The notes beneath the pieces are model-generated. The model was not told the origin of the DNA. It searched no databases and saw only the letters and a list, made by a program, of their open reading frames with translations. A DNA stretch of 64,000 nucleotides from Minisyncoccota bacterium. GTDB lineage: Bacteria > Patescibacteriota > Minisyncoccia > Phycocordibacterales > UBA1006. The DNA lies in contig JAQVEZ010000002.1 of assembly GCA_028697455.1 (NCBI GenBank), forward strand, positions 25,486 through 89,485, in the 5' to 3' direction. Shown here one piece after another: positions 10,757 through 49,884 of the stretch. Numbering within the stretch: position 1 is the stretch's first letter; each line of letters starts with the position of its first letter. The position numbers and the translations under genes were made by a program.

Positions 10757-10774
10757 CTCTCAAAAAAAGTGAAT

Positions 10775-10812
10775 AAACAAAAAAGCTTTTCCATTTTTTC
10801 TTTGGAAAAGCT
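10775..10812. terminator. Bidirectional terminator between thyA and the convergent M15 peptidase gene
   Basis: AAAAGCTTTTCCAttttttctTTGGAAAAGCTTTTTT. Confidence 0.6.
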
Positions 10813-10815
10813 TTT

Positions 10816-11733
10816 TTATAATCCATTTTCAAGAGGTTCTTCGGTATTTTCAAGTGTCTTAGGAGAAAAATTCTTGAGAATATCAGGAGACACCCACACA
10901 AACTCCCATGGCTCTGGATCAGGTCCTTGTGGGCGACCGCCTTCAGGGTAGCTTGGAATAAAACCAAAGCGTTTTGCATTTTCAAAATTCTCAGCCGAAA
11001 GCCATTCATAACAATTAGTAGAGGCAAAACTATAAACCAAGTAATCATCTCCACAACCAAAATCAACCGCGTATCCTGTATGATGTTTTGAATATCCCGG
11101 GAGAGCAGAAACCTTAAGCATTTTATCAATAAGGTCATCATATATCCCAGAAGGGATAAGTTCTGTCTGGATACCCATAAGTTTATTCTTTATCAACGTT
11201 CTTTGGTGAGTTGACGAGCGATATCCAGAAACAAAGTGGAGCCGTATTCCTTCTTTCATCATTTCATTTCTCATTCGGACATATGCATCACGAACTTCGG
11301 GATAGGTTTCAACATTTTCGAAGTGAATAATTTTTTTGGGATCAGCAAACCCTCTTTGTTGATACCCACGAGATTCTGCAAGATTTCGCAGATAGTTATC
11401 GACGAGCTCATCCTGAAAGATATATTTTCGAAGAAAAGAGAGATGTGCGTTTCTTTCAAAAAGATTAAAGAGATCAACAAAGTCCTGTGCATCCATGCAA
11501 GGAAACAAGCCACAAAAAGGAATTTTTTCTTCTTCTGGTATTACCTCCTCTTGAAACATCTCGACCTTTTCAACATTTACTTCTTCAAAATTATCATCCT
11601 GAGCAAGTTCTTCTTGATGCTCTTCCTGAGGGAAGGTATGAAGAAGTGAAAATCGCTCAACGACAAAAAGCGCTGCTCCCCAAAGAAGGAGCACCAAGAA
11701 AATAACAATATATTTTTTATTTCCCTGAAACAT
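10816..11733 (-). CDS. VanY-like D-alanyl-D-alanine carboxypeptidase (peptidase M15), membrane-anchored
   Basis: N-terminal TM (IVIFLVLLLWGAALFVV); SGYRSSTHQ...HHTGYAVDF is the Zn-binding SxHxxGxAxD signature of VanY/M15B peptidases. Confidence 0.7.
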   Translation of the reverse strand: MFQGNKKYIVIFLVLLLWGAALFVVERFSLLHTFPQEEHQEELAQDDNFEEVNVEKVEMFQEEVIPEEEKIPFCGLFPCMDAQDFVDLFNLFERNAHLSFLRKYIFQDELVDNYLRNLAESRGYQQRGFADPKKIIHFENVETYPEVRDAYVRMRNEMMKEGIRLHFVSGYRSSTHQRTLIKNKLMGIQTELIPSGIYDDLIDKMLKVSALPGYSKHHTGYAVDFGCGDDYLVYSFASTNCYEWLSAENFENAKRFGFIPSYPEGGRPQGPDPEPWEFVWVSPDILKNFSPKTLENTEEPLENGL

Positions 11734-12928
11734 ATGATGCGTGTTGTCTTAGAATGGTATCAATTCGACCGGCGAGTACTTTTATTTCTTTTTCTTTAAT
11801 ACCTTTGGTTGTTTCAAAAGCCATCCCCAAACGAATTCCCGATGGATCTTGAGGAGAGCGTGTGTCGAAGGGAATTGTGTTCATATTTACAATAATTCCT
11901 TCTTTTTCTAAAAATTCACTAGCTTCTTTTCCCCCTAATCCCTTCCCTTTGTTCCAAACATCAAGAAGAAAAAGGTGATTATCAGTACCGCCACTTACAA
12001 TTCTCCATCCTTTTTTCTGAAGTTCAGAAGAAAGGGTTTTTGTGTTGTTTATTACTTTTTGTATATAGGTCTTAAAAGAAGTGCTTTTTGCCTCTTTCAA
12101 GGCAACAGCAATTCCTGCGATTTGATTCATGTGAGGACCTCCTTGGAGTCCTGGGAAAACAGCCTTCTGAATCTTTTCAAAAAAACCAGTATCTTTCTTT
12201 GAAAAAATAAGTGCCCCTCGCGGACCACGCAGAGTTTTGTGGGTTGTTGTGGTAACAACATCAGCATATACAAAAGGTGAAGGGTGAAGTCCTGTTGCAA
12301 CCAGACCCGCAATGTGAGAAATATCAACCATCAAAATACTACCCCCTGCATCAGCAGCTTCGCGCATTTTTTTAAAATTAATTTTTCTTGAATAGGCGGA
12401 ATAACCAACCACAAGAATGTCAGGGCGTTCTTTAGTAGCAATCTCTTTAATCTTTTCATAATCAAGTCGTTCTGTTTTTGGATCAAGTTCATAAGAAACT
12501 TGTTTCCATAATTTTCCTGTAACAGAAACAGCGTGTCCGTGGGTGAGGTGTCCTCCATGAGAGAGTTTCATTCCCATAATCTTACCTCCAAGAGGAACAA
12601 GCGCATGATACACCGCAAGGTTTGCAGGAGATCCAGAAAGAGCCTGAACATTAACTCCCCATTTCTTTAGATTAAGATTAAAAAGATCTCCTGCTCTTGT
12701 TATTGCAAGATTCTCAAGTTCATCAATAAAAATATTTCCTCGATAGTAACGAGCCCCTGGATATCCTTCGGCATATTTATTTCCTAAATCAGAGGCAAGT
12801 GCTTCTTTTACATCCTGAGAAACATAATTTTCTGATGCAATAAGATTTATCGTTTTTTTCTGTCGTTCTGATTCTTTTGTGAGAATTTTTTTAACCATAA
12901 GGTCCTTCATATTTGACCAGTATAGCAA
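11717..12928 (-). CDS. glyA: Serine hydroxymethyltransferase
   Basis: LIASENYVSQDV, GHLTHG, VVTTTTHKTLRGPRGALIF (PLP-lysine region); 403 aa. An alternative start at ATG 12910 is possible. Confidence 0.9.
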   Translation of the reverse strand: MLYWSNMKDLMVKKILTKESERQKKTINLIASENYVSQDVKEALASDLGNKYAEGYPGARYYRGNIFIDELENLAITRAGDLFNLNLKKWGVNVQALSGSPANLAVYHALVPLGGKIMGMKLSHGGHLTHGHAVSVTGKLWKQVSYELDPKTERLDYEKIKEIATKERPDILVVGYSAYSRKINFKKMREAADAGGSILMVDISHIAGLVATGLHPSPFVYADVVTTTTHKTLRGPRGALIFSKKDTGFFEKIQKAVFPGLQGGPHMNQIAGIAVALKEAKSTSFKTYIQKVINNTKTLSSELQKKGWRIVSGGTDNHLFLLDVWNKGKGLGGKEASEFLEKEGIIVNMNTIPFDTRSPQDPSGIRLGMAFETTKGIKEKEIKVLAGRIDTILRQHASYVSGK

Positions 12929-13007
12929 AATGAGAGAAAAAACAAGAACGAAAAACTAAAGAAAAACTAAAATGACAAATGGGAGTATCTATGCTATAAT
13001 CCAAAAT

Positions 13008-13808
13008 ATGAATAGCAAAAACAAAAAACTTATCGTCGCAAACTGGAAAATGAACGTTGTTTCTGAAAAAGACGCTGAAAATCTCTTCCTTTCCATAAAA
13101 AACGTCGTTCCAAAGCTTGATTATGTAAAAATGGTAACCTGCCCTCCTCATATGTATGTATCTCAGGTGGCTGCTCTTGTTGATCACCCTAACTATCGTG
13201 TTGGTGGGCAGGACGCCTACCCAGAGGAATCCGGGTCACGTACGGGAGAAACTTCTGTTCTTATGATGAAGAACGCTGGGGCAGAATACATTATTCTTGG
13301 GCATTCAGAACGACGACACCTCGAAACAAAACTTGATGTTGCTCGCAAAATAAGTGCTGTTCTCGAACATGAAATGACTCCTATTATTTGTATCGGAGAA
13401 GAGTCTCGTGATAAAACCTGGAAAAAACAACTCCAAAAACAACTCCAAGATGTTTTTACACGCGTTCCAAAAAAGAACCCAGAGAATATCATTATTGCCT
13501 ATGAACCTATTTGGGCAATTAGCTCAGATAAAAAATCTCCAGCAAGTGCTGCTGAATGTATGGAAGCGCTCGAGGTAATTAAAGCTGAGCTCCTCAAGAT
13601 ATTCAAAACAGCAAAAGCCGTCTCTGCAATACGATTTCTCTATGGAGGGTCTCTTGACGACAAAAATATTGAAGAGTTTCTCAAAGAAACTGACGTTGAC
13701 GGTTTCCTTATTGGAAGAGTATCTCTTGACCCACGAATTCTGATGACGATGTTTCGTTTGGTTGATGATCATGTGTATCAATCATCACTAAAAAAAGAAG
13801 AGGAATAA
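13008..13808 (+). CDS. tpiA: Triosephosphate isomerase
   Basis: LIVANWKMN, GHSERR, IAYEPIWAIS, YGGS. Start placed at ATG 13008, which has a TATAAT box 7 nt upstream. Confidence 0.85.
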   Translation: MNSKNKKLIVANWKMNVVSEKDAENLFLSIKNVVPKLDYVKMVTCPPHMYVSQVAALVDHPNYRVGGQDAYPEESGSRTGETSVLMMKNAGAEYIILGHSERRHLETKLDVARKISAVLEHEMTPIICIGEESRDKTWKKQLQKQLQDVFTRVPKKNPENIIIAYEPIWAISSDKKSPASAAECMEALEVIKAELLKIFKTAKAVSAIRFLYGGSLDDKNIEEFLKETDVDGFLIGRVSLDPRILMTMFRLVDDHVYQSSLKKEEE

Positions 13809-13847
13809 CTCTTCTTTTTTTATTTCTTCATATTGTATTATTCAAGC

Positions 13848-15155
13848 TTAACAAGATTGAGTTTGTGCTTGTGGTTTTGGTTGAGGACAAAGATTCTCAG
13901 GTACTTGATTTCCTTGGTTGTCTTTACAGATAGCCGTACGTGTTTGGCTTGCTCCAGTGACATTCCAGGTACAAAGATTGTTTGTGTAAAAAGGATCGGT
14001 ACAATCTTCTTCACTGTAATTATAATATGCACAAATGGTATCACTATAAAGAGGAACAGAACCAGTAACACTATTTACATACCCTGGAGTTGAAGGTCCT
14101 CCACCAGGGTTATCTGACCCTTGCCCAGGAGTAACACTAACTCTGTGCCAAACCCCATTATTGATAGAAGGTTCGTAATAAAGAGATCCCCAAAATCCTC
14201 CAATTTCTCGAATACAAGCTCCTGCCCCCATAGGGTTTAAGTCCATATTTGTCCCAACATTGACGTCTCTTCCGAGTGGTGTTTCCGGGGCACACTGATA
14301 AAAATTTTGAGCTTGAGTTGGGGTAGAATAAACCCTTCCATTAACCCATTCAAAAGGATTCCCTGCCCAATCAACCTTATAATGAGCCGATGGTCCTTGA
14401 CAGCTTCCTACACCACCAGTACAAGCTCCCCAAGGAGACCAGTCCCAATGATAGGTTGTTGTTACCTTATTTGCCCAACAGTTTGCGGTAGGACCTCCGA
14501 GTTGTCCAGTACAACTCCATTTGAAGAGGTTCCCTTCCGTGATAACTCCAGGCATTGATCCAGTAATAAGACAGAGTCCTTCTGTTGGTGGTTCAGCAAA
14601 GGTCTGTTGATGTGAAGGTCCACAGACTCCAGGAATAGGGGTTGGATCATCAGGAGGAGTTGTTGTTGAACAACGTTCAATTCTTCCAAAATCATTCACA
14701 CAGGCGGGGACATAAGGGTCAGCACTTGGATCAGCCAAACTATCAATACGGATATATCCGTCTACTCTCAAAGGTGCATCTGCAGGGGCTGACGATACCG
14801 ATCCAACCGTAAGACGATGGATAAGGGTGTCTTGATAGGCAACGATATTGTTAAAGAACGATGTTCCAAAAACACGGAAGGTAATATTTTTTGCAGTATT
14901 AAACCAACTCAAAGGAGTTGTTCCAAGAGATCCGTTTGAAAATTGCTTTGGTGCAAGCTGAAATGATGGAATCAAAAATGAACTTCCAAGAGAACCGTTT
15001 CCAAGTTTTGTAAGGAGTTGCCCCACAACTCCTGGTTCCTGAGTATCGTCTATTCCTCCACCAATAGTTCCTTGGGCAAGAACAGGAGAAACAAAAGAAG
15101 AAGAAAGAAGTGCAAAAGCAAACACAAAGGATGTTACAATAAGGTATTTTTTCAT
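13848..15155 (-). CDS. Secreted Cys-rich repeat protein (4-Cys modules plus thrombospondin-type-1-like WxxWxxW...C repeats)
   Basis: Signal peptide MKKYLIVTSFVFAFALLSSSFVSPVLA. Modules GVCGPSHQQTFAEPPTEGLCLITG...WSCTGQLGGPTANCWA, then YHWDWSPWGACTGGVGSC and TRTAICKDNQGN...LC. N-terminal domain homologous to that of 17559..19034 (ITFRVFGTS vs VTFRVLQNATFATS). Confidence 0.6.
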   Translation of the reverse strand: MKKYLIVTSFVFAFALLSSSFVSPVLAQGTIGGGIDDTQEPGVVGQLLTKLGNGSLGSSFLIPSFQLAPKQFSNGSLGTTPLSWFNTAKNITFRVFGTSFFNNIVAYQDTLIHRLTVGSVSSAPADAPLRVDGYIRIDSLADPSADPYVPACVNDFGRIERCSTTTPPDDPTPIPGVCGPSHQQTFAEPPTEGLCLITGSMPGVITEGNLFKWSCTGQLGGPTANCWANKVTTTYHWDWSPWGACTGGVGSCQGPSAHYKVDWAGNPFEWVNGRVYSTPTQAQNFYQCAPETPLGRDVNVGTNMDLNPMGAGACIREIGGFWGSLYYEPSINNGVWHRVSVTPGQGSDNPGGGPSTPGYVNSVTGSVPLYSDTICAYYNYSEEDCTDPFYTNNLCTWNVTGASQTRTAICKDNQGNQVPENLCPQPKPQAQTQSC

Positions 15156-15187
15156 AATAATATAATAGATTGACTCAATAATAACGA

Positions 15188-15829
15188 TTAACCTTGCTCA
15201 CTTCCTAACCCTCCTCCACCAGAACTTCGTGGACACAAAATAATTTTACCACTTTGGTCAGAGCACACTTTTCTTTGCCTCGTAGTATTTTGTGGGGCAT
15301 AGGTTATTCCCGACCACCATGCCAAAGAACTCAAGAGCATACTGTGAATACTTGATCCTACATCTCCTTTTATAATAAATGAACTGTCATAGGATTCAAA
15401 GCTTCCTCCTCCTGATCCACTACCCGTTCCTACCGTAACAAGTCCTCCTACTTGTGCAGGGGTTCGAACGACAAGTCGTGGAAAGACAGCAGAGCCGTTC
15501 ACATCAAGACATGATTGTGCTTGGGTTGCAAATTTTTCTGGAACACTTGGGTTAAAAATAAGACACCGATTAACAAGACTCTCTTCTCCCCCAAAAAGAG
15601 GGGCAATTCTCCAGTAGTTAGGACTTGAACTGTGTCCAATTGCCAAAGACCCGAGTCGACTAATAAAACTCCCTGGGGAGATAAAAGGAAGGGTATTTTG
15701 TATCTCTGGCGCGCTATTCCCAACAGGGTTTGAGAGCTGCGCTCTTGCAATCAGGGCTGAACCTCCAATGACTGCAATCCCAAGAACCACAGCAAAAGCA
15801 AAATAAGAAAAGTTAAAAGAATTTTTCAT
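15188..15829 (-). CDS. Secreted Gly/Ser-rich protein of the same tandem family
   Basis: Signal peptide MKNSFNFSYFAFAVVLGIAVIGGSALIARA; GSGSGGGS and SSGGGGLG low-complexity runs. Confidence 0.5.
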   Translation of the reverse strand: MKNSFNFSYFAFAVVLGIAVIGGSALIARAQLSNPVGNSAPEIQNTLPFISPGSFISRLGSLAIGHSSSPNYWRIAPLFGGEESLVNRCLIFNPSVPEKFATQAQSCLDVNGSAVFPRLVVRTPAQVGGLVTVGTGSGSGGGSFESYDSSFIIKGDVGSSIHSMLLSSLAWWSGITYAPQNTTRQRKVCSDQSGKIILCPRSSGGGGLGSEQG

Positions 15830-15966
15830 AGATATGATAATTGATCAACTATTAGAAATTAATAGTACCTTTAGTATATCATAGATAATTTGAGCAAGAC
15901 AAGTAAAAAAGCCTTCTACATATCGAGTATGTAAAAGGCTTTAAGTCACAAAGAAAGAAAGGCTTT

Positions 15967-17433
15967 TCATTTCTTAATGACTTTCTGGGTAAAAACTTTT
16001 TTCCCATCGTGGACCTTGAGGATATACACCCCAGCAGGAAGATTCTCCAAAGAAATTCTGTTCTCATAGAGAGCACCTCTTGAGACCCGTACTCCTGCGA
16101 GTGTATAGAGCTCAAAAGACTCGAGTCTCACATCACTTTCAAGATGCAACACGCTACTCGTTGGATTCGGATAGACGCGAACTGAGAGCTTGTTCTCTCC
16201 TTGATCGCTGGTTCCCATAATGAGGTTGCTGAAATAAATTTCAGCCTCAGCAAAGTCCGTTTGTGGATGTTTACCCATATAGAAAAGATCATCATCTCCG
16301 TCTCCGTCAAAATCAGCAGCAATGGCAGAACCAAAATAGAGCTGCTTAAGGAGCAATGCCTTATTAAGGGAGAAAGTCCCCCCATCATTCAAGAAAAGCC
16401 TCCCATCATCATCGTTGTTCGCCGAAGATGCATAGAATTCATCGTAGCCGTCCCCATCAAAATCATGGAGGAATATTGTGTCTGACGTCCAATTAAACTG
16501 CTGAGAGAGGCTAAAACTACCATCTCCGTTGTTAACATAGAACAAAGTTTGGTCTCCTTCATGACTCATGACAAAATCAGGAAGACTATCTCCGTTAATA
16601 TTTCCAGTAGCAAAAGACACAATTCCTGCTGGAGGGAAAGGAACAAATTGTCCACCCCCAGTACGAACAGGATTAATAACTTCTTCAAAATTCCCAGAGC
16701 CGTAATTAAGGAACAATCGTGTAGGTCCTTGTCCTCCATAAAAAATGTCAGGATAACCATTACCGTCAATATCAGCAAAAGCTATGCCAAGACCAGTTTC
16801 ACCATCAAGATCAGGGAGGTTTGATGTTACTTCAGTAAAAGTTCCGTCGCCATTATTACGGAGAAACTTGATTTTTGTCTTTCCTCGGTCATATTTATCA
16901 ACCCAACGAAAAACAATATCCTTGTCTCCATCCCCGTCAAAATCTATAGCAAAACATGAAGTATAAAACGGTGTCCAAGAGATAATAATTTCTACTTCAA
17001 TAAAGGTTCCGTCTCCATTTCCAAGATACAGAAAACTCTTAAAGTTTTCGGGGTTTTGATTATAGGATTCAAAAACTCCTGAAATAAAAACATCTTCGTG
17101 ACCATCATTATTGAAATCATCAACAACAGGTTCACCCCCAGCAAGGTGCTGAAAGGGTGTACTAGCTGTCCAGGTTCGGTCTCCATTATTAATATGGAGA
17201 TGACTTTCGATTACCAAGGTAAAGGGTATCGGCGTCATTACTTGTTTAATTGCCCCGATCGTTACGATATCCAGGAGCCCATCTTCATCAAAGTCTCCAA
17301 CAGCTGGCTTTCCAGCAAATTTACCCTGGATGCCATGATTTAGTCCACGAGTGAACGAAAGCTCACCCGAATGTTGCTGCGCTCCGAGGTAGCATCCCGC
17401 TACCAGCATGAGCAAGAAAATAAAGTTTTTCAT
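15967..17433 (-). CDS. FG-GAP/VCBS-repeat beta-propeller protein with a T9SS-type C-terminal sorting domain
   Basis: Signal peptide. Repeated Ca-binding-like motifs DFDEDGLLDIV, DFNNDGHEDVF, DFDGDGDKDIV, DIDGNGYPDIF, DFDGDGYDEF, DFDGDGDDDLF. C-terminus VYPNPTSSVLHLES...FELYTLAGVRV...LPAGVYILKV...TQKVIKK matches the Por secretion C-terminal domain consensus. Confidence 0.65.
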   Translation of the reverse strand: MKNFIFLLMLVAGCYLGAQQHSGELSFTRGLNHGIQGKFAGKPAVGDFDEDGLLDIVTIGAIKQVMTPIPFTLVIESHLHINNGDRTWTASTPFQHLAGGEPVVDDFNNDGHEDVFISGVFESYNQNPENFKSFLYLGNGDGTFIEVEIIISWTPFYTSCFAIDFDGDGDKDIVFRWVDKYDRGKTKIKFLRNNGDGTFTEVTSNLPDLDGETGLGIAFADIDGNGYPDIFYGGQGPTRLFLNYGSGNFEEVINPVRTGGGQFVPFPPAGIVSFATGNINGDSLPDFVMSHEGDQTLFYVNNGDGSFSLSQQFNWTSDTIFLHDFDGDGYDEFYASSANNDDDGRLFLNDGGTFSLNKALLLKQLYFGSAIAADFDGDGDDDLFYMGKHPQTDFAEAEIYFSNLIMGTSDQGENKLSVRVYPNPTSSVLHLESDVRLESFELYTLAGVRVSRGALYENRISLENLPAGVYILKVHDGKKVFTQKVIKK

Positions 17434-17558
17434 TTTTAATTATTAATATTTTGACTTTAGTATACTACATAAACAATATAAATCAAGGAGTTATCAACAA
17501 GTAAAAACTCACCCTTTTGGGTGAGTTTTTGGCAAAATAAGAGTATTAAAGAAGTGCG

Positions 17559-19034
17559 TTAATAGGAACCTCCTCGTCCATGAATAATCGTTGAGAGAAA
17601 TGGGTTTCCAAGAGCATTGTAGAGGGTAAGACTTGCTGAAGAATCTCCATCTCCATTACCTGCTTCTGATTCAGTTCCTCCACAAGCCTGAATCTCAACG
17701 GTTGCTTTTCCTGTGGCATCAAGTTTGAAGGTTCCGGTATTTTGTTGGTACCTTGGTATCCCAAGACTTGCACCACCGACATGTCGTATAAAGGTGTATC
17801 CTGAAGCAGCATGTCCTGGATTTGAAAGTGCCATGTAATGAATCGTCTGATTGGGAGCTCCTGAGATAACATATCGCTCGAGCCAACCTGCATCCTGAGG
17901 AGGTTCAACAAATGACAATTCACACCATGATACCCATCCTCCGCTAAAGGTTGGATTACATCCTTCAGTTGTTGTTTGAGGGGCTGGTTTTGGTCCGACG
18001 TTAACAATACATACCTGATCATCATGAGTGTTTCCGTTGCTGTCTTTACAGATAGCATTTCGAGTCTTGATGCCATCAACACACTGTCCATAAGGACCCC
18101 AGTCCCAATAGTACCCTACCTGTTCTTTTGGAGCTAAACAGTTAGCAACATCTCCTGTTGCTGAGGTACAAGACCAGGTAAAGGAAGAAGATCCTTCGTT
18201 CACCGCTGAAGCAGTTCCTACTGAACACAAACCGGTCGTTGGTGCTGTTTGGGTTGGAACGCCATTGGCTGGACCACAGACTGCCATTTCAGGAACGACT
18301 CGTGGTGTTGTACAGAGCTGATTTGATCCTCCATTCTGTCCAAAACAAGTCCAACTATATGAGCTTGCTCCAATCATAATTCCCGAAGCAATACCACTGG
18401 TACAAAGATTTCCTGTTGGAGGGTTATTATAAGGGCCTCCGTTAACAATGGCTGCATTACACACCCCATTAACAGGTTGTGCTGTTGGGCAAGGAACAAG
18501 TGTTCCGTCTCGTGTGATACATACTTCTTGAGGGGTAGCTTTGTTATGAGAAAGAGGCACTGAAAGAGCTGTCCCCCATACATTTACCCTCTGAAGATAT
18601 TGAGCTGGGGTTTTTCCTGCGTAGTTTTGTTTCCAGATAGCAAGCCCTGGCCCAATAGCATCGGTGTTGGTTCCTCCAAGGAAGAGACTTGTTGCAAATG
18701 TTGCATTCTGAAGAACACGGAAGGTAACCTTTTCTTTATAATTACTATTTGTCCAACTATTATCAAAGAGACTCACGTCACTACTTTGAGATCCTCGAGT
18801 ATCGAGTTGTGCACCCGAAAGAATAGCACACAAGGCATTAGGACACCCGATACGGAGGTTATCAATGACCTGATCTCCTCCTCCTTTATGAATCAAAGGA
18901 GCAAGGGCGCTTGGTCCTGCTGGTGGAGGAGTTGCTCCTTCGGCAAGAGCAAACCAAGAAACAAGAACAAGAAGAGCCAGAACAACAAGAGGAAAATTTA
19001 TTTTTTGCTTAAAGAATTTTTTCATAGTATTCAT
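17559..19034 (-). CDS. Secreted Cys-rich repeat protein (paralog of 13848..15155)
   Basis: Signal peptide. Modules GVCNAAIVNGGPYNNPPTGNLCTSG...YSWTCFGQNGGSNQLC and AVCGPANGVPTQTAPTTGLCSVG...FTWSCTSATGDVANC, then YYWDWGPYGQCVDGIKTRNAICKDSNGN...VC (TSP1-like). Confidence 0.6.
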   Translation of the reverse strand: MNTMKKFFKQKINFPLVVLALLVLVSWFALAEGATPPPAGPSALAPLIHKGGGDQVIDNLRIGCPNALCAILSGAQLDTRGSQSSDVSLFDNSWTNSNYKEKVTFRVLQNATFATSLFLGGTNTDAIGPGLAIWKQNYAGKTPAQYLQRVNVWGTALSVPLSHNKATPQEVCITRDGTLVPCPTAQPVNGVCNAAIVNGGPYNNPPTGNLCTSGIASGIMIGASSYSWTCFGQNGGSNQLCTTPRVVPEMAVCGPANGVPTQTAPTTGLCSVGTASAVNEGSSSFTWSCTSATGDVANCLAPKEQVGYYWDWGPYGQCVDGIKTRNAICKDSNGNTHDDQVCIVNVGPKPAPQTTTEGCNPTFSGGWVSWCELSFVEPPQDAGWLERYVISGAPNQTIHYMALSNPGHAASGYTFIRHVGGASLGIPRYQQNTGTFKLDATGKATVEIQACGGTESEAGNGDGDSSASLTLYNALGNPFLSTIIHGRGGSY

Positions 19035-19042
19035 TATATTAA

Positions 19043-19996
19043 CTATACCTCTCGATAATCAGGAATGACTAGTCCTGATCCAGGACCTCCAGGTCCACCA
19101 GGATCTCCTGGATCATTTGGGTCGACAACCTCTCCACACCACGCATATGCTGATCCGATAATAACAGCACCAGAATCATTTCCAATACATCTGATGGTGA
19201 AGGTTACAGGAGTGTTTTGGTTGGTAATAGCCCCAGAAGCGAGCTCTCCCGAAGTATTTTGAGTTGCTCGAGCACCAGGGCTTACCCAAAGTCCAATTCC
19301 AGTCTGACAATCTGAAACATTTTCAGAAGTCCATCTGATCGTTGGTCGTGGAATACTACACTCTTCTTGATAAAGAACGTTTGCGTTATTGAGAGTAATA
19401 TCAACATGTTCATTACAATCACTTTGCGCGATAACAACGTCAGAAAAATCAAGATATTTTGCCCCAACAACATCTTCGTAATAATCAGTTCCCCCTACAA
19501 TGGAGAAATTATAGTTTTTTCCAAGCCCGACAAAAGCTCCTGGGTCTGATTGATAGGTAACGCCAGAAAGATCAACTTGATATGGCATATTCCCCCATGC
19601 TGCGGGATTTGCTTTTGGAGATTCAAACTCAGCTCTTTTTTGGGCCATAAGGTTTTGGTTAGTATATCCAAAATCAACCCATCCAAGATAGGGGCTCCAC
19701 GCTCTTCCTCCAAAAAGACCTGTTTGCCGGTTATAGCTTGTGTAGAAGCTTATATTGGTTGTCCCTTGTCCAGAAAGATCGTTCCATGACTGAGTACTCA
19801 TATAGATAGGTCCTGCAAAGGTAGTCATAACAACACCATACAAGTTTCCTGGTCCGTCTTCAGAACAAGCATTTCCTCCTCCAATAGTTGATTGCGCTTT
19901 GACTTCAGGAGAAAAAGCAAGTTCTGAAAAGAGAAAAGCTCCCGCAAGAACAAAAAGGAAAGAAATTTTATAAGTAGATAAAAGAATTTTTTTCAT
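19043..19996 (-). CDS. Secreted protein of the same family, with a Gly/Pro-rich C-terminus
   Basis: Signal peptide, then AQSTIGGG (compare AQGTIGGG in 13848..15155); C-terminus DPNDPGDPGGPGGPGSG. Confidence 0.55.
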   Translation of the reverse strand: MKKILLSTYKISFLFVLAGAFLFSELAFSPEVKAQSTIGGGNACSEDGPGNLYGVVMTTFAGPIYMSTQSWNDLSGQGTTNISFYTSYNRQTGLFGGRAWSPYLGWVDFGYTNQNLMAQKRAEFESPKANPAAWGNMPYQVDLSGVTYQSDPGAFVGLGKNYNFSIVGGTDYYEDVVGAKYLDFSDVVIAQSDCNEHVDITLNNANVLYQEECSIPRPTIRWTSENVSDCQTGIGLWVSPGARATQNTSGELASGAITNQNTPVTFTIRCIGNDSGAVIIGSAYAWCGEVVDPNDPGDPGGPGGPGSGLVIPDYREV

Positions 19997-20011
19997 AAGA
20001 ATAAAATAAAT

Positions 20012-20308
20012 TTAAATGGATGATCGTAGCATATCCTCGATTGTTTTTTCTCGATGCTCGTCAGTGAAAGGGGTTTGCCCTTGTACGGTTGATTCTAGGA
20101 TATTTAGTTGCTCTTCTTCAGGAAGAACTCCATCGTAGGGAGAAGAAGGTCCAAACTTATAATAAAGAAAAACAGCAAACGCTATGAGTACAAGGATACC
20201 CAACAAAACAAAAATATTTTTGTTTGTGTCGTGGTTTTCCTTTGGCGAAACAGTTTGTTTTTTTGTTTCTTCTGGAAAAATACGATCGTCTCGTAAAGGA
20301 TCTTTCAT
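20012..20308 (-). CDS. Small single-pass membrane protein, hypothetical
   Basis: 98 aa; TM segment IFVLLGILVLIAFAVFLYY. Confidence 0.4.
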   Translation of the reverse strand: MKDPLRDDRIFPEETKKQTVSPKENHDTNKNIFVLLGILVLIAFAVFLYYKFGPSSPYDGVLPEEEQLNILESTVQGQTPFTDEHREKTIEDMLRSSI

Positions 20309-20449
20309 AAAACTCTTTAAGGTTAACCAATAATAGTCAATTTAGTATATCATGTTTCCCCGTAAGCAAGCAACAGAAACAAAAGAATCCCTTAAAACAA
20401 AAAACAGGAACTCAAGTTCTGTTTTTTGTTTTACTCACGAGAAGCTTAC

Positions 20450-21712
20450 TTATTCAAAATCTTCACCGTGAGATGTATTATCTGTATTCTCTTCTTGTTC
20501 ATTTTCAAGAACCTCCTCAAGATCATCAAGAGAAACAAAGTCGTCAGATGATTCATCATCGTCAAAATTAATCCCCTCATTACTTCCTGAAATATCAATT
20601 CTCCATCCGGTAAGTTTTGCAGCAAGTCGAGCATTTTGTCCTTCTTTCCCAATAGCAAGAGAAAGTTGGTCTTCTGCAACAACAACCTTTGCCTTTTGTT
20701 CATCAAGGTTTCCTTCAATATCAAGAACTTGGGCAGGGGCAAGTGAGTTTGCAACGTAAAGGAGAGGGTCAGCAGACCACGAGATGATATCTATTTTTTC
20801 TTCTCCAAGATTTGAAGTTACCGCATTAATACGAGAACCTCTTTGTCCAACACAAGCTCCAATAGGATCAACATCAGGATCGTGGCTCATAACCGCAATT
20901 TTTGAACGTGAACCAGGTTCTCGTGCAATTGATTTTATTTCGACAACACCAGTTGCAACCTCAGGTGATTCTGCCTTGAACAGCTCTCGAATGAACTCTG
21001 GATGAGTTCGAGAGAGGCTGATACGCACTCCTCGTAAGCCTGGCTCCACAGCAAGAAGATATACCTTGAGAGTATCCCCTACTTTATACCATTCACCGCG
21101 TGGTTGGTCTTTCTTTTCAATAACGCCGAGGGTTCGCGGGGCAAGTTCAACAAAAACTTTTCCTCCAACCACTCGCTGAATTGTTCCAGAGAGAAGTGTC
21201 CCCACCATTTTTTCATACCGAGAAAGTTTAATATCTTTTTCAGCTTCACGAAGTTTTTGAAGAATTACTTGCTTTGCTGTTAGCGCCGCAACGCGCCCAA
21301 ACTCTTCATTTTCTTCAAGAGGATTATCGAGGGGGAAAATGATTTCATCCCCTACCTTCACATTAGTACGGATATGCTGAGCCTCAGGAAGATACATGTG
21401 ATGCTCTCGATTAAAACGAACACGCTCATCTCCTTCTTCATTTTCTTCAATAAAATTCGGATCCTCAAGCTCTTCTTCAGTGAGCTCTGGCTTTACGAGA
21501 CTCTCATCAACAACCGTTTTTACTTGAAAGAATTCGAGTGCTCCTGTTTCTGGATTAAAATGTGATCGAATAATTTGTCCTTTTGCTCCATAGTCTTTTT
21601 TATAAGCAGCTGCAAGAGCATGCTCAATTGCTTCGAGAATTTTCTCTCGAGGAATATTTTTTTCTTGCTCAATCTGTTCGAGCGTAGATTGTAATACCTT
21701 TAAATCAAACAT
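20450..21712 (-). CDS. nusA: Transcription termination/antitermination factor NusA
   Basis: N-terminal [29 protein letters not shown]; S1 domain ([15 protein letters not shown]); KH domains ([29 protein letters not shown]); acidic C-terminal tail. Confidence 0.9.
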
Positions 21713-21800
21713 AATTATTTTATTTTAATACTACTAAGAGGACAGTTGGTCCTACCCAAAGGGTATCAAATTCATCAAAAAAAGAAAGCTGAGCTTTCTT

Positions 21801-22802
21801 TTAAATGCCACGAGGACCACTTTCTGAAGGCACTTCACCTCCCTCTTCCGGCTCTTCCTCATACTGTGTTTGAGACATATCATCTGGAGAAGAAGTGGCT
21901 ACAACATCAAAAAATATATTCAATTTTTGTAATGTAGAGATCGTATCGTCAAAAAGTGACTCCATCTGAATGATTGATGAGACAATAATAATATCATCAG
22001 GTTCTTTGAGAAGAAGATTATCAAAAGAAGAAGAAAGGCTGCTAATATTATTGAGGAGTCGTAGGTGTGTTTCGGTAACTGACTGAGGAACCTCGGCCGA
22101 AAGGAGTTCATTGAGATATTTTTTATATTTTTCTGAGGTTACATAAAGTTTCCCAGTATATAAAGTTTGATCTTTTGCTGCAGCAACAAGAAGCTCGAAA
22201 TCAGAGAGGTTGATAGGGTATGAGCTAAGTGCTTTCTTCATTAACGACTCATAGCTTTTGATTTTTTGGTAGGTATCATTTGTTCTTTTAATATCACTCT
22301 TTAAATAAATCTTTCCCCCGAGAGGAAGGGTAGAAACGTACTGCTCGATATTTTTATCAAACTGTTCTTGGTTTTTTTCATTAAAAACTCCTCCCGCTTC
22401 TTCAAAAGCAACGACAGCACTCAGCCCGCTTCGCAGAAACTTTTCCATTTCAGAAAGAGATTCTCCCCCTTCCACAACAAAACGTGCACGTTCTCGACGC
22501 TGAATTTCCTTAAGGTAAATTCCATCAAGAACTCCGTTCCCGTTAGAATAAGGGTTCTCCGGATCGAGACCTGCAGCTATTTCTTCCCAGTCATAAGCAC
22601 CGTCATCATCACTATCCTTTACAAGGGTTGAGGCCTGTTTTGAGTCCTCAATAAGTGAGATAGAAAGGAGATTATTTCCCTTCCCTTTTATCTTTTTAAA
22701 AATAAACAGACTTACAAGAAGAAGAACTCCAACAAGGAGTAGTGCCCCAATAAGATATTGGGTTTTTTTGCTAGGAAGGTATTTTTGAAATTTGGCAAAC
22801 AT
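21801..22802 (-). CDS. Hypothetical membrane-anchored protein
   Basis: 333 aa; N-terminal TM segment LIGALLLVGVLLLVSLFIF; acidic C-terminus. Confidence 0.45.
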   Translation of the reverse strand: MFAKFQKYLPSKKTQYLIGALLLVGVLLLVSLFIFKKIKGKGNNLLSISLIEDSKQASTLVKDSDDDGAYDWEEIAAGLDPENPYSNGNGVLDGIYLKEIQRRERARFVVEGGESLSEMEKFLRSGLSAVVAFEEAGGVFNEKNQEQFDKNIEQYVSTLPLGGKIYLKSDIKRTNDTYQKIKSYESLMKKALSSYPINLSDFELLVAAAKDQTLYTGKLYVTSEKYKKYLNELLSAEVPQSVTETHLRLLNNISSLSSSFDNLLLKEPDDIIIVSSIIQMESLFDDTISTLQKLNIFFDVVATSSPDDMSQTQYEEEPEEGGEVPSESGPRGI

Positions 22803-22834
22803 ATATTTAAGTATAACAAAAAAAATAAAAAATA

Positions 22835-23641
22835 TTATTTTTTTGCAAAGAATGTATATTTATCACAAAGGTCTTTCCACAAAGGAAATAAAATATCTTC
22901 TGCTCGTGTATTCTTTGGAATATCAAGCTCAGTAAACCAAAGGTCCCAGTCTCCATTAATTTTTTTAAGATTTTTAAGTGCCTTTTTTCTTTTTTCGCTA
23001 AAAGCAGTTTTAATAATAGTAAAAAAATTTTCTCCCCAGCGAAAAGAAGGAATTTTTTCCACCCCAATATCTCTTATTAAAATAATTGCTGAATCAACCT
23101 TGGGCTTAGGCGTAAAAAAACGAGCAGGAACTTTCACAATCCACCCTGCAGAACCATAGAGTGCTACTGATAACGAAAGGATTGATGATTTCTTGTCTCG
23201 AGAAACGATTCTTTCTGCAACTTCTTTTTGAACAAGGAGGACAGCCGTCGTTGGAGAATTTTTTCTTTCTAAAAAGAATTTCAAAATATGCGTAGCAACA
23301 TAGTAAGGAAGATTGGCAACAAGCTTATAAGAAACCCCTTGGGGAATTTCTTTTTCCCAGCTTGAAAAAAGAACATCTCCCGGAACGAGGATGAGTTGTT
23401 TGCTTTCAATAAATGAAGAGAATTTCTCTGAAAGATAGTGAATCATTCTCTCGTCTATCTCACAGGCAACCACACGAGCACCAGCAGCAAGAAGAACCTC
23501 TGTAAGAGCTCCTTTCCCTGGACCAACTTCAAGAACATAATCTCCGGGATGAATTTCTGCAGAAGAAACCATTGCAGAAAGAGCTTTCTTTGATTTAAGA
23601 AAGTTTTGTCCTAATGATTTTTTAGGGGAAACATCAACCAT
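22835..23641 (-). CDS. rsmA: 16S rRNA (adenine1518/1519-N6)-dimethyltransferase
   Basis: GQNFL, VLEVGPGKGALT (SAM-binding), NLPYYVATHIL motifs of KsgA/RsmA. Confidence 0.85.
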   Translation of the reverse strand: MVDVSPKKSLGQNFLKSKKALSAMVSSAEIHPGDYVLEVGPGKGALTEVLLAAGARVVACEIDERMIHYLSEKFSSFIESKQLILVPGDVLFSSWEKEIPQGVSYKLVANLPYYVATHILKFFLERKNSPTTAVLLVQKEVAERIVSRDKKSSILSLSVALYGSAGWIVKVPARFFTPKPKVDSAIILIRDIGVEKIPSFRWGENFFTIIKTAFSEKRKKALKNLKKINGDWDLWFTELDIPKNTRAEDILFPLWKDLCDKYTFFAKK

Positions 23642-23670
23642 AGATTTAATAATAGCTTAAAAAATTCTCC

Positions 23671-49781: not shown

Positions 49782-49884
49782 AAAAGGTAAATAATACTTC
49801 TTAGTATAGAAAAATAGAAACTTTTTTCAAGAGATGCTCTTTATTAATGACATATTTTAAGGGATCATGTTATACTTTAAGCGT

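What the first reader, a model, noticed from the sequence alone, without database searches (positions are those of the whole stretch)
13848..19996. Tandem array of five secreted proteins: four paralogous Cys-rich proteins, two with 4-Cys modules and thrombospondin-type-1-like repeats
Five consecutive minus-strand genes all encode signal-peptide proteins with no obvious anchor. Two of them (13848-15155 and 17559-19034) share a homologous N-terminal domain (TFRV block). Both carry repeated ~50-aa modules of the form C-G-x(6-12)-P-x3-LC-x2-G-x(8-10)-W-x-C-x4-G-x3-C, followed by a segment with spaced Trp residues and a TR(T/N)AICKD(N/S)(Q/N)GN...C block. That segment resembles eukaryotic thrombospondin type-1 repeats (WSxWSxW...CxxxCG...R.R.C), which are rare in bacteria. 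Two others begin with nearly the same post-signal N-terminus, AQ(G/S)TIGGG. Tandem paralogous secreted adhesin-like proteins are candidates for host or substrate attachment and are likely fast-evolving.
Basis: partly seen in the sequence, partly recalled or inferred. Interest (0 to 1): 0.65.

Follow-up and report, generated by a model that had tools for sequence, protein, structure and literature searches.

The report
Patescibacterial surface-protein cluster with thrombospondin repeats
A tiny, probably host-dependent bacterium (Patescibacteria) carries a conserved cluster of secreted, modular surface proteins. Their cysteine-rich tips include true relatives of the animal thrombospondin type-1 repeat and a very widespread four-cysteine domain that no family database yet lists, so they most likely act as attachment proteins.

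Summary
The five minus-strand genes are real, but the description needs correcting. A (13848-15155), B (15188-15829) and D (17559-19034) are paralogues. They share a ~130-160 aa N-terminal domain that ends in a VC-x4-G-x-L-x2-C loop. E is unrelated to them. C is an FG-GAP repeat protein with a T9SS-type C-terminal sorting domain.

The 4-Cys module occurs twice in D and once in A. It is a widespread uncatalogued domain: 1187 cluster representatives match D at E<=1e-3, with up to 28 copies per protein. It has no Pfam or NCBIfam model. AlphaFold models it at pLDDT 88-96, and no significant match to a solved structure was found.

The thrombospondin reading is supported by sequence. A profile of six compact units hits only human THSD7A TSRs in the PDB (E=5e-11). 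Syntenic orthologues pass Pfam TSP1_ADAMTS. D's own unit is sub-threshold (17.7 bits against a cut-off of 23.8) but matches no other family. A carries a unit that appears split by a ~140 aa insert. The fold could not be tested, because pLDDT in that region stayed below 55.

The nusA-F-E-D...B-A-tpiA arrangement recurs in related Paceibacterota, with the tip modules reshuffled. Best reading: Sec-exported modular adhesins. Function is inferred, not shown.

The parts
20012..20308 (-). F: 98-aa single-pass membrane protein. Its cytoplasmic N-terminus M(K/N)DPLRD(D/N)RIFPEE is conserved. It is the first gene of the cluster after nusA.
   Evidence: ORF. One TM segment at residues 27-56. Homologues sit at the same position in L002, L003 and L004. 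No family hit above threshold.
19043..19996 (-). E: 317-aa secreted protein and the most conserved member. It has an N-domain with GR(A/G)WSPYLGWVDF, a C-terminal Cys-containing domain, a Pro/Gly linker and an invariant C-terminal tail G-x-V-I-P-x-(Y/F)-x-E-V-COOH (tail at 19046-19075).
   Evidence: Alignment A3. 37-49% identity to L002-L004. 14 metagenome loci found. No Pfam, NCBIfam or PDB hit. Not a paralogue of A, B or D.
17559..19034 (-). D: 491-aa secreted modular protein. Order: signal peptide, D-type N-domain, two 4-Cys modules, one compact TSR unit, and a variable C-terminal domain.
   Evidence: ORF. Domain coordinates verified. Identical protein on a Logan contig.
18483..18932 (-). 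D N-domain (aa 35-184), ending in VCITRDGTLVPC.
   Evidence: N-domain profile A2, E=4e-30. Alignment.
18120..18479 (-). D 4-Cys modules 1 and 2 (aa 186-246 and 247-305).
   Evidence: Module HMM finds two copies. Every best stretch among the 150 listed hits overlaps the two modules; for most it lies wholly within them (mature 154-273), seven also cover the N-domain and a few run on into the TSR unit. AlphaFold pLDDT 88-96 for module 2.
17952..18119 (-). D compact TSR-like unit (aa 306-361): VGYYWDWGPYGQC..GIKTRNAICKD..C..KP..C, with 4 Cys.
   Evidence: PF19030 is its only Pfam hit, at 17.7 bits, E=0.0044, below the cut-off of 23.8. Leave-out profile 29.2 bits, E=1e-8. The family profile hits THSD7A at E=5e-11.
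17562..17951 (-). D C-terminal domain (aa 362-491), the most variable segment between strains.
   Evidence: 73% identity to strain L082, against 86% for the whole protein. dN/dS 0.275. No homologue outside the two strains among the sequences held.
15967..17433 (-). C: 488-aa FG-GAP/VCBS repeat protein with a T9SS type A C-terminal sorting domain (aa 420-488, 15970-16176) and a lipobox-like LVAGC. It appears to be its own transcription unit.
   Evidence: FG-GAP_3 E=1e-40 and Por_Secre_tail E=5e-9. TIGR04183 46.9 bits. Highest GC3 of the cluster, 0.354, with flanking gaps of 125 and 137 bp. Terminator-like hairpins at 17530-17503 and 15942-15908. Absent between D and B in L002-L004. An analogous protein lies in the L085 cluster.
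15188..15829 (-). B: 213-aa secreted protein that is essentially a B-type N-domain alone (aa 43-201, 15227-15703), ending in VCSDQSGKIILC.
   Evidence: N-domain profile E=3e-46. In L003 and L004 the same B-type N-domain is fused to TSR and module regions.
13848..15155 (-). A: 435-aa secreted modular protein. Order: signal peptide, A-type N-domain (14664-15050), one 4-Cys module (14463-14648), then a TSR unit that appears split by an inserted domain.
   Evidence: ORF. N-domain E=5e-32. One module copy. Coordinates verified.
14397..14459 (-). A TSR N-piece (aa 233-253): TTYHWDWSPWGACTGGVGSCQ.
   Evidence: Aligns to positions 1-17 of the compact-unit HMM, but weakly on its own (6.2 bits).
13983..14396 (-). 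A inserted domain (aa 254-391), with a DW-x-GNPF-x-W motif.
   Evidence: Lies between the two TSR pieces. Homologous insert in L004_A (34% identity, E=1e-4). The same motif is visible in the L091 proteins.
13851..13982 (-). A TSR C-piece (aa 392-435): C-T-W..ASQTRTAICKDNQGNQVPENLCPQPKPQAQTQSC, at the C-terminus of the protein.
   Evidence: Aligns to HMM positions 16-48 at 24.2 bits, E=4e-7. BLASTP to the D unit 1e-5. The equivalent C-pieces of P0138, P0114, L004_A and L003_A score 18.5-22.6 bits on PF19030.

Best explanation
This is a lineage-specific surface-protein gene cluster of a Paceibacterota (Patescibacteria/CPR) bacterium. It lies between nusA and tpiA.

Shown:
- Six genes (F, E, D, C, B, A) encode one small single-pass membrane protein and five proteins with N-terminal signal-peptide-like segments.
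- A, B and D are paralogues built on a shared ~130-160 aa N-terminal domain closed by a VC-x4-G-x-L-x2-C loop.
- Behind that domain, A and D carry interchangeable cysteine-rich modules. One is a widespread, uncatalogued 4-Cys module of about 55 aa. The other is a thrombospondin type-1 repeat of the ADAMTS/THSD7A kind, reduced to four cysteines. It is compact in D and apparently interrupted by a ~140 aa inserted domain in A.
- In related genomes the same N-domains carry other combinations of tips: more modules, several TSRs, or FG-GAP repeats.

Inferred:
- The proteins are exported by Sec, cleaved by signal peptidase I and folded with disulfides outside the cell.
- The constant N-domain holds them at the cell surface or in a complex with the co-conserved E and F proteins.
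- The variable tips bind glycans or proteins on a partner cell or substrate, as TSRs, FG-GAP and Ig/PKD-like modules do elsewhere. The cluster would then be a modular adhesin set for an attachment-dependent lifestyle.
For: Organism and code:
- NusA is 76-79% identical to Patescibacteria/Paceibacterota MAGs.
- TGA is used as a stop codon.

Export:
- Single N-terminal hydrophobic segments with AxA-like sites in A, B, D and E.

Paralogy and conservation:
- The N-domain profile hits A, B and D (E 1e-30 to 1e-46). It also hits a protein directly downstream of the E homologue in the related loci whose contig extends beyond E (L002-L004, L082, L084-L086, L088, L089, L091, L092).
- Synteny nusA-F-E-D...B-A, ending at tpiA in both the window and L085.

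Module shuffling:
- L085 3917-5500 has an A-type N-domain fused to FG-GAP repeats.
- L003 and L004 have B-type N-domains fused to TSRs and modules.

TSR homology:
- THSD7A is the only significant PDB hit (E=5e-11 and 5.6e-12).
- PF19030 is passed by P0108, L003_D, L004_D and L091.
- Leave-out profile: D 29.2 bits, A 25.5 bits, background 3.7 bits.

4-Cys module:
- 1187 representatives match D.
- It co-occurs with PKD, fn3, CARDB, LamG, an InlB B-repeat annotation and a metalloprotease in other proteins.

Transcription units:
- F-E-D, C and B-A are suggested by 8-32 bp spacing within units and terminator-like hairpins between them.

Background:
- All cultivated Patescibacteria are obligate episymbionts (abstract of 10.1101/2024.11.25.624915).
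Against: - No functional, expression or localisation data exist.
- There is no recognisable anchor in A, B, D or E: no LPXTG, no TM segment, no lipobox. Surface retention is therefore assumed.
- The window's own TSR copies are below the Pfam threshold, and A's C-piece gave no Pfam hit alone.
- The TSR fold was not reproduced. AlphaFold pLDDT was 32-53 with a 7-row alignment and 36 overall from the single sequence.
- The compact units have four, not six, cysteines.
- The N-domain and E have no detectable relative in Pfam, NCBIfam, PHROGs or the PDB, so their proposed roles are guesses.
- Purifying selection between strains (dN/dS <= 0.28) gives no signature of an arms race.
Confidence: 0.6

Rival explanations
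1. These are structural cell-envelope proteins (an S-layer-associated or wall-associated matrix) with no role in binding a partner. The N-domain would self-assemble or bind the wall, and the Cys-rich modules would only be rigid spacers.
For: - The cluster is conserved next to housekeeping genes and is under purifying selection.
- B is an N-domain with no tip.
- The 4-Cys module often occurs in long tandem arrays of up to 28 copies, like a spacer or stalk.
Against: - Tip architecture is reshuffled between close relatives, which is unusual for a purely structural lattice.
- TSR and FG-GAP domains are typically ligand-binding domains (established knowledge).
- No S-layer homology, SLH or wall-binding domain was detected.
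Confidence: 0.15
2. The N-domain proteins are subunits of a fibre or pilus-like appendage. The shared N-domain would polymerise. E, with its invariant C-terminal VIPxYxEV, and F, the membrane protein, would act as assembly or anchor factors. A and D would be tip adhesins and B a shaft or adaptor subunit.
For: - Three paralogous N-domain types always occur together with E and F.
- F-E-D are spaced by only 8-15 bp.
- The extreme C-terminus of E is invariant.
- The signal-peptide n-region MKKF(F/L)TQKINF is conserved in D-type proteins.
Against: - No similarity to any pilin, sortase, usher or chaperone family.
- No structural model of the N-domain or of E could be obtained.
- The idea rests on gene order and motif conservation alone.
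Confidence: 0.15
3. The thrombospondin resemblance is convergence or composition: a Cys/Trp-rich pattern that mimics TSRs without common ancestry or fold.
For: - Full-length A and D give no Pfam hit at E<=1.
- D's isolated unit is below the gathering score.
- There are four rather than six cysteines.
- AlphaFold gave no confident TSR fold.
- Classical TSRs (TSP-1, properdin, TRAP, ADAMTS13) were not hit by the bacterial profiles in the PDB.
Against: - Of 177,635 PDB sequences, only THSD7A TSRs reach significance, over the full unit length and in register (W-x2-G-x-W-G-x-C, G-x-Q-T-R-x-V-x-C, C, KP, C).
- Of 24,736 Pfam models, only TSP1_ADAMTS is hit by the TSR units themselves, and four family members pass its curated threshold.
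- The leave-out profile separates A and D from background by more than 20 bits.
Confidence: 0.08

Closest known systems
Thrombospondin type-1 repeats of the ADAMTS/THSD7A kind (Pfam PF19030 TSP1_ADAMTS; solved example THSD7A, PDB 8oxr)
   Same: - The same sequence signature in the same order: Y-x-W-x2-G-x-W-G-x-C, G-x-Q-(T/S)-R-x-V-x-C, a mid-unit Cys, (K)P, and a terminal Cys.
- Profile-level significance.
- THSD7A's second TSR also carries an insertion at the same point where the bacterial split units are interrupted.
   Different: - Found in bacterial (Patescibacteria) proteins with bacterial signal peptides and a bacterial N-domain.
- The compact units have 4 Cys: the second Cys of the CSxxCG motif and its partner are missing.
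- There is no CSx(S/T)CG O-fucosylation motif.
- Many units are split by inserts ranging from tens of residues to about 210 aa.
- The window copies score below the Pfam threshold.
- The fold is not verified.
TSR-bearing invasion adhesins of Apicomplexa (TRAP/CSP family), as discussed in PMC3417536
   Same: A microbe that depends on another cell displays secreted or surface proteins carrying an 'animal-type' TSR adhesion domain. The literature regards the domain as acquired by lateral transfer.
   Different: - Those are eukaryotic parasites with transmembrane adhesins linked to a gliding motor.
- Here there is no TM anchor or cytoplasmic tail, the TSR subtype differs, and no host is known.
- The direction of any transfer was not tested.
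T9SS type A cargo proteins of Bacteroidota (TIGR04183 / PF18962 C-terminal sorting domain), for gene C
   Same: Signal peptide, then a passenger (FG-GAP repeats), then a C-terminal ~70 aa sorting domain that matches the model end to end.
   Different: - The host genome is a patescibacterium. The T9SS is described as restricted to Bacteroidota/FCB (abstracts listed).
- No T9SS component was seen in the window (and the ORF list).
- How the domain would be used here is unknown.
Unnamed multi-copy '4-Cys module' proteins of diverse bacteria and archaea (for example P0006, P0008 from an Alphaproteobacteria MAG, P0009 from a Pacearchaeota MAG, P0002, P0003 from a Gracilibacteria MAG)
   Same: The same ~55 aa module, with consensus G-x-C-G-x10-P-x3-L-C-x2-G-x12-W-x-C-x-G-x2-G-G-x4-C-x-A.
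   Different: - Those proteins lack the N-domain and the TSRs.
- They combine the module with other domains: PKD, fn3, CARDB, LamG, an NF038122 metalloprotease, and an InlB B-repeat/DUF1566 protein.
- All are annotated 'hypothetical'.

Membership tests
Thrombospondin type-1 repeat (Pfam PF19030 TSP1_ADAMTS) | Score at or above the curated Pfam gathering threshold (23.8 bits) | tested here: not met
   The window copies fail. Full-length A and D gave no hit at E<=1. D's isolated unit scored 17.7 bits, E=0.0044, and A's C-piece gave none. Orthologous or family units pass: P0108 55.4, L003_D 35.3, L004_D 29.9, L091 27.5 bits.
Thrombospondin type-1 repeat (Pfam PF19030 TSP1_ADAMTS) | Significant, full-length, in-register sequence similarity to a TSR of solved structure | tested here: met
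   Family profiles that include D's unit hit THSD7A (8oxr_A) at E=5.3e-11 and 5.6e-12. It is the only significant PDB hit, and both of its TSR domains align. D and A join the family by the leave-out profile (29.2 and 25.5 bits).
Thrombospondin type-1 repeat (Pfam PF19030 TSP1_ADAMTS) | Trp-bearing strand A (WxxW / WxxGxW) and Arg-bearing strand B (QxRxVxC) | tested here: met
   D has YYWDWGPYGQC and KTRNAIC. A has YHWDWSPWGAC and QTRTAIC. These positions are invariant or nearly so in alignments A4 and A8.
Thrombospondin type-1 repeat (Pfam PF19030 TSP1_ADAMTS) | Six conserved cysteines forming three disulfides | tested here: not met
   The compact units have four conserved Cys (A4). The second Cys of the CSxxCG motif and a partner are absent. 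The split units add further Cys in the insert. Disulfide connectivity was not determined.
Thrombospondin type-1 repeat (Pfam PF19030 TSP1_ADAMTS) | Three-stranded elongated fold with a stacked Trp/Arg layer | tested here: inconclusive
   AlphaFold pLDDT was 32-53 for D 306-367 with a 7-row alignment. The single-sequence run placed three strands at D ~306-312, 318-331 and 336-348, but pLDDT was only about 38-67 across this stretch and 36 overall. No usable model was available for a fold search.
T9SS type A C-terminal sorting domain (TIGR04183 / PF18962), gene C | Curated model score at the extreme C-terminus | tested here: met
   TIGR04183 scores 46.9 bits (cut-off 23) over aa 420-488, model positions 1-72 of 72. 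PF18962 scores 36.7 bits (cut-off 27).
T9SS type A C-terminal sorting domain (TIGR04183 / PF18962), gene C | A T9SS translocon (SprA/PorV/PorU and others) encoded in the same genome | not testable with these tools
   Only 64 kb of the genome is available. No T9SS component was found among the large ORFs scanned. The T9SS is described as limited to Bacteroidota/FCB.
FG-GAP / VCBS repeat proteins (PF13517), gene C | Multiple FG-GAP_3 repeats above threshold | tested here: met
   PF13517 scores 138.5 bits over 7 stretches.
Any catalogued family for the 4-Cys module | A hit in Pfam-A (2025), NCBIfam r20, or the PDB by sequence or fold | tested here: not met
   - D and A gave no hit.
- P0006 (1790 aa, 15 matched stretches) gave 0 Pfam and 0 NCBIfam families.
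- Foldseek against the PDB: best E=0.5.
- BFVD: no hit.
Gram-positive sortase-anchored (LPXTG) or other CTERM-sorted surface proteins | A C-terminal sorting motif followed by a TM helix | tested here: not met
   A, B, D and E have no second hydrophobic segment. They have no TIGR01167 or Gram_pos_anchor hit.

The most novel reading that the evidence does not exclude
The nusA-tpiA cluster would be a previously undescribed patescibacterial host-attachment apparatus. F would be the membrane anchor. E would be an adaptor that uses its invariant C-terminal VIPxYxEV. Three N-domain paralogue types would form a stalk that displays swappable tips. The TSR tips, including a novel 'split TSR' that hosts an inserted domain in its A-B loop, would have been captured from a eukaryote, pointing to a eukaryotic partner or environment for this Paceibacterota lineage. 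The recurrent T9SS-type CTD on the FG-GAP member would be read by a non-T9SS sorting route in a bacterium thought to lack an outer membrane.
Probability: 0.15. Interest if true: 0.75.

Novelty: new variant of a known kind. Interest (0 to 1): 0.5.

Why it matters
How ultrasmall Patescibacteria recognise and hold on to their partners is largely unknown beyond type IV pili (abstract of 10.1101/2024.11.25.624915). This cluster offers three things:

- A concrete, conserved and experimentally tractable candidate set of adhesins for the Paceibacterota.
- Evidence that a domain treated in the literature as animal-type (PMC3417536) exists in a reduced four-cysteine form, and apparently in an insert-bearing form, in this bacterial lineage.
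- A very common four-cysteine extracellular domain (more than 1000 protein clusters, up to 28 copies per protein) that is missing from Pfam and NCBIfam and has no significant match among solved structures. It is worth a family definition and a structure.

None of this changes a major paradigm. It is a useful annotation and domain-evolution result.

Tried and rejected
- **Genetic code 25.** Considered because one module hit came from Gracilibacteria. Rejected: TGA ends four long ORFs, including C at the exact end of its CTD model.
- **Word-indexed homologue searches.** They were nearly blind here. D alone gave 3 hits, the TSR alignment gave none, and the N-domain alignment gave only strain variants of B. 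The relatives came from locus scans and from the exhaustive search.
- **AlphaFold of mature D from the single sequence.** Failed, pLDDT 36.
- **AlphaFold of module 2 plus the TSR.** The second run resolved only the module. Rows from related MAGs could not be used in the alignment.
- **PDB profile searches and PHROGs.** Profile searches for E and for the N-domain gave nothing. PHROGs gave nothing significant.
- **C as a one-off horizontal insertion.** This was my first reading. I softened it after finding a second, non-similar FG-GAP + Por_Secre_tail protein in the L085 cluster.
- **Positive selection.** Not supported: dN/dS is 0.28 or less everywhere.
- **AQ(G/S)TIGGG as a functional motif.** Rejected. 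'AQ' is the common start of the mature proteins, and TIGGG is absent from the E orthologues.
- **Resemblance of the end of the B-type N-domain (FAPRD-TT-QR-VC) to a motif common in Bacteroidota hypothetical proteins.** This is recalled from memory only and could not be tested, so it is not used.

Full report
**What is at the coordinates.**
The window has about 38% GC and uses TGA as a stop codon. Its NusA is 76-79% identical to NusA of three Patescibacteria/Paceibacterota MAGs. The organism is therefore a CPR bacterium using the standard bacterial code.

The five minus-strand ORFs exist exactly as described:

| Gene | Coordinates | Length (aa) |
|---|---|---|
| A | 13848-15155 | 435 |
| B | 15188-15829 | 213 |
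| C | 15967-17433 | 488 |
| D | 17559-19034 | 491 |
| E | 19043-19996 | 317 |

A sixth gene belongs with them. F (20012-20308, 98 aa) has one transmembrane segment and lies between E and nusA (20450-21712). A, B, D and E each have a single N-terminal hydrophobic segment followed by an AxA-like site, and no other hydrophobic stretch. C has a short signal peptide with a lipobox-like LVAGC.

**Who is related to whom.**
BLASTP among the six proteins links only A and D strongly: 1e-11 over the 4-Cys module and 1e-5 over the tail block.

An alignment of the N-terminal regions with those of the syntenic proteins of related genomes shows a domain common to A, B and D. It is ~130-160 aa long and ends in an invariant VC-x4-G-x-L-x2-C loop. 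Its profile scores B at 3e-46, A at 5e-32 and D at 4e-30, and hits no other ORF of the window.

E has no such domain and only 6 Cys. C has 2 Cys. C is an FG-GAP/VCBS repeat protein (PF13517, 7 repeats, E=1e-40) with a C-terminal T9SS type A sorting domain (PF18962; TIGR04183 46.9 bits, matched end to end).

So 'four paralogous Cys-rich proteins' should read 'three paralogues, of which two are Cys-rich'. 'No obvious anchor' is wrong for C. The AQ(G/S)TIGGG strings are in A and E. 'AQ' is simply the usual start of the mature proteins of this cluster, and TIGGG is absent from the E orthologues.

**The 4-Cys module.**
D has two copies (aa 186-246 and 247-305) and A has one (aa 170-231).

- An exhaustive phmmer search of mature D against 1.84 billion cluster representatives gave 1187 proteins at E<=1e-3, 497 at E<=1e-10 and 91 at E<=1e-30. 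Every best-matching stretch among the 150 listed hits overlaps the two modules; for most it lies wholly within them, seven also cover the N-domain and a few extend into the TSR unit.
Of 1111 complete copies, 96% have exactly four cysteines, most often spaced C-x16-C-x17-C-x10-C.
- The consensus is xvnGxCGsanGxxxxxaPtxnLCsxGtaSxVxGxGPWxWtCxGxnGGxxasCsAx.
- The carriers that have a source name are 'hypothetical protein' entries from, for example, an Alphaproteobacteria MAG and a Pacearchaeota MAG.
- The module sits beside PKD, fn3, CARDB, LamG, Kre9-like Ig and W_rich_C domains, an NF038122 metalloprotease, and in a protein annotated as InlB B-repeat/DUF1566.
- It has no Pfam or NCBIfam model.
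- With only a seven-row alignment, AlphaFold2 modelled D's module 2 at pLDDT 88-96.

The module is therefore a real, very common extracellular domain that is not catalogued in the two family libraries searched, has no significant match among solved structures, and has no assigned function.

**The thrombospondin question.**
D 306-361 reads VGYYWDWGPYGQC-VD-GIKTRNAICKDSNGNTHDDQVC-IVNVGPKPAPQTTTEGC. Cleaner copies occur in family members, for example:

- L004_D: YSWDVGPWGTCSNGSQSRIVVCRDNNNNVVSNSLCGSPTPETSRNC.
- P0108: two units, such as YSWFTGGWGLCFSGNQTRTVECRDNSGNTVNDALCTKAKPITSQSC.

The evidence, step by step:

- A first nine-row profile already put human THSD7A at the top of the PDB (E=0.015).
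- A profile of six compact units found THSD7A (8oxr_A) as the only PDB sequence with E<=10 among 177,635. The score was E=5.3e-11, with both of its TSR domains aligned over the whole unit and in register.
- A 13-unit profile gave E=5.6e-12, and nothing else was significant.
- Pfam PF19030 (TSP1_ADAMTS, cut-off 23.8 bits) is passed by P0108 (55.4 bits, E=7e-15), L003_D (35.3), L004_D (29.9) and L091 (27.5).
- It is approached by L004_A (22.6), P0138 (21.5), P0114 (19.1) and L003_A (18.5).
- D's isolated unit gives PF19030 as its only hit, at 17.7 bits (E=0.0044). A's C-piece alone gives nothing.
- A profile built only from the four Pfam-positive units outside this species scores D at 29.2 bits (E=1e-8) and A at 25.5 bits (E=2e-7). 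The next best of all 198 six-frame ORFs of the window scores 3.7 bits.

I conclude that these are divergent members of the ADAMTS/THSD7A branch of TSRs. They differ from the canonical domain in three ways. Only four cysteines are conserved. The CSx(S/T)CG motif is missing. Classical TSRs (TSP-1, properdin, TRAP) were not reached by the profiles.

AlphaFold gave pLDDT 32-53 for this segment. The single-sequence run placed three strands where strands A, B and C should be, but at low confidence.

**A split TSR in A.**
The compact-unit HMM aligns A 233-253 (TTYHWDWSPWGACTGGVGSCQ) to its positions 1-17. It aligns A 392-435 (..ASQTRTAICKDNQGNQVPENLCPQPKPQAQTQSC) to positions 16-48. About 140 residues lie between the two pieces.

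A matching N-piece and C-piece were found by the HMM in L003_A and in L004_A (second unit). The HMM found the C-piece of P0138, P0114 and L003_D, and their N-pieces were identified by eye in the sequences. The inserts range from tens of residues (L003_D) to about 210 aa.

The larger inserts share a DW-x-GNPF-x-W motif. A Cys-x-G follows the first Cys at the start of the insert, and a C-x-W motif closes the insert. THSD7A's second TSR also has an insertion at this point, and HMMER splits it in the same way.

This fits an insertion hot spot in the A-B loop of the repeat. Whether the two pieces really pack into one unit is an inference. The N-piece alone scores only 6.2 bits.

**The cluster as a unit.**

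- The order nusA-F-E-D-type...B-type-A-type recurs in L002, L003 and L004, whose NusA is 76-79% identical.
- A close strain, L082 (Logan SRR28106885), has all six genes.
- Every one of the 11 clearly E-related metagenome loci that extends beyond E has an N-domain protein directly downstream.
- The cluster ends at tpiA both in the window and in L085.
- What follows the N-domain varies. L002_D, L085_D, P0077 and P0141 have four modules and a different C-terminal region. L003_D has three insert-bearing TSRs. L004_A has a B-type N-domain followed by a TSR, a module and a split TSR. L085 3917-5500 has an A-type N-domain fused to six FG-GAP repeats.
- Among the 150 best module proteins, only those that also have the N-domain carry TSR units (P0108, P0114, P0138).
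- E is the most conserved member. It has a GR(A/G)WSPYLGWVDF core and an invariant C-terminal G-x-V-I-P-x-(Y/F)-x-E-V.
- Spacing and consensus scans suggest three transcription units: F-E-D (gaps of 15 and 8 bp), C alone (gaps of 125 and 137 bp, with terminator-like hairpins at 17530-17503 and 15942-15908, each followed by a promoter-like site), and B-A (32 bp).

**Gene C.**
C has the highest GC3 of the region (0.354 against 0.24-0.30). It is missing between D and B in L002-L004. That suggested a recent insertion.

However, the L085 cluster contains its own FG-GAP + Por_Secre_tail protein (5632-7245), just before tpiA. It shows no BLAST similarity to C at E<=1e-3. A T9SS-type CTD on an FG-GAP passenger is therefore a recurrent element of this patescibacterial cluster. 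That is odd, because the T9SS is described as restricted to Bacteroidota/FCB.

**Rate of evolution.**
Against strain L082, amino-acid identity is 84-96% for the cluster genes and 83-99% for the flanking genes.

| Genes | dN/dS |
|---|---|
| E | 0.045 |
| B | 0.13 |
| D | 0.17 |
| A, F | 0.19 |
| C | 0.21 |
| NusA, TIM, VanY, SHMT, ThyA, UvrD, KsgA and the 333-aa gene | 0.01-0.16 |

The highest value is 0.275, for D's C-terminal domain, which is only 73% identical between the two strains. This indicates relaxed constraint, not positive selection. The 'fast-evolving' label holds mainly at the level of domain architecture between species.

**Mechanism.**
Shown: the gene set, the paralogy, the modular composition, the sequence homology of the TSR units, and the conservation of the cluster.

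Inferred: Sec export and signal-peptidase cleavage, extracellular disulfide formation, retention at the surface through the N-domain and/or E and F, and ligand binding by the tips.

I consider modular adhesins for attachment to a partner cell or substrate the most likely function (confidence 0.6). Three points support this: the known roles of TSR, FG-GAP and Ig/PKD-like modules, the tip shuffling, and the episymbiotic lifestyle of all cultivated Patescibacteria. The alternatives are a purely structural envelope role, a fibre assembled from N-domains with E and F as assembly factors, and convergence of the TSR-like pattern. The report lists what would refute each.

**Comparison and novelty.**
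- I found no paper in the held library that links thrombospondin repeats with Patescibacteria.
- The literature I could read treats TSP1 as an animal-type domain passed to apicomplexans (PMC3417536).
- From my own knowledge, domain databases list a small minority of bacterial TSP1 hits, so bacterial occurrence as such is probably not unprecedented. I could not check this.
- What appears new is the four-cysteine variant, the apparently insert-bearing variant, their confinement (within the sample examined) to one patescibacterial N-domain family in a conserved cluster, and the size of the uncatalogued 4-Cys module family.
- I rate this as a new variant of a known kind, with moderate interest (0.5).

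Noticed in passing
window 15970-16176 (C, aa 420-488); L085 5632-7245: T9SS type A C-terminal sorting domains (TIGR04183 / PF18962) sit on FG-GAP proteins in two different patescibacterial clusters. The two proteins are not BLAST-similar to each other. The T9SS is described as limited to Bacteroidota/FCB, and no T9SS component was seen in the window. How such a CTD is used in a CPR bacterium is unexplained.
   Followed up: partly
window 19046-19075 (E C-terminus); L002 11703-12632, L003 4728-5627, L004 11804-12730: The extreme C-terminus of E is invariant, G-x-V-I-P-x-(Y/F)-x-E-V-COOH, after a variable Pro/Gly-rich linker. It matches no sorting signal known to me. It could be a docking or strand-donation peptide.
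   Followed up: no
window 18990-19034 (D N-terminus) and D-type and B-type proteins of L002-L004, L085, L086, L091, L092, P0077, P0095, P0114, P0137, P0138, P0141: The n-region of the signal peptide is unusually conserved: MKKF(F/L)TQ(K/Q)INF in D-type proteins and MKK-x3-KIN in B-type proteins. The proteins themselves are only about 20-40% identical in the N-domain region. This recalls specialised signal peptides such as YSIRK in Gram-positive surface proteins.
   Followed up: no
window 9800-25581 compared with L082: Synonymous divergence between the window and the close strain L082 is strongly mosaic. dS is 0.03 in uvrD, 0.10-0.14 in C, B, A, tpiA and thyA, 0.5 in E and D, and 0.9-1.1 in nusA and the 333-aa gene. 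This indicates recombination between strains across this region.
   Followed up: partly
window 58569-60788 and 60839-63076: Two adjacent ORFs of 739 and 745 aa contain an identical 34-residue stretch (aa 172-205), so they appear to be paralogues. The first carries a T4SS_pilin-like segment just below the Pfam threshold (25.7 bits, cut-off 26.6) and a C-terminal SLT lytic transglycosylase domain. This may be part of the patescibacterial type IV secretion system described in PMC12102498 (listed).
   Followed up: no
window 25968-28562, 49867-52869, 52913-55357: Three large ORFs (864, 1000 and 814 aa) have no Pfam hit at E<=1e-3. They carry none of the N-domain, 4-Cys or TSR profiles.
   Followed up: no
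window 32162-35653: A 1163-aa protein has two PG_binding_1 domains and a CarboxypepD_reg-like domain. It is another large envelope-associated protein near the cluster.
   Followed up: no
P0062 and P0140 (exhaustive-search hits): A shorter Cys/Trp unit, C-x-W-x-C-x2-W-x2-C-x2-G-x-(Q/K)-T-R-x-C...C...P...C, is interleaved with 4-Cys modules in proteins that lack the N-domain. It looks like a further reduced TSR-like unit, but neither Pfam nor my compact-unit profile recognises it.
   Followed up: partly
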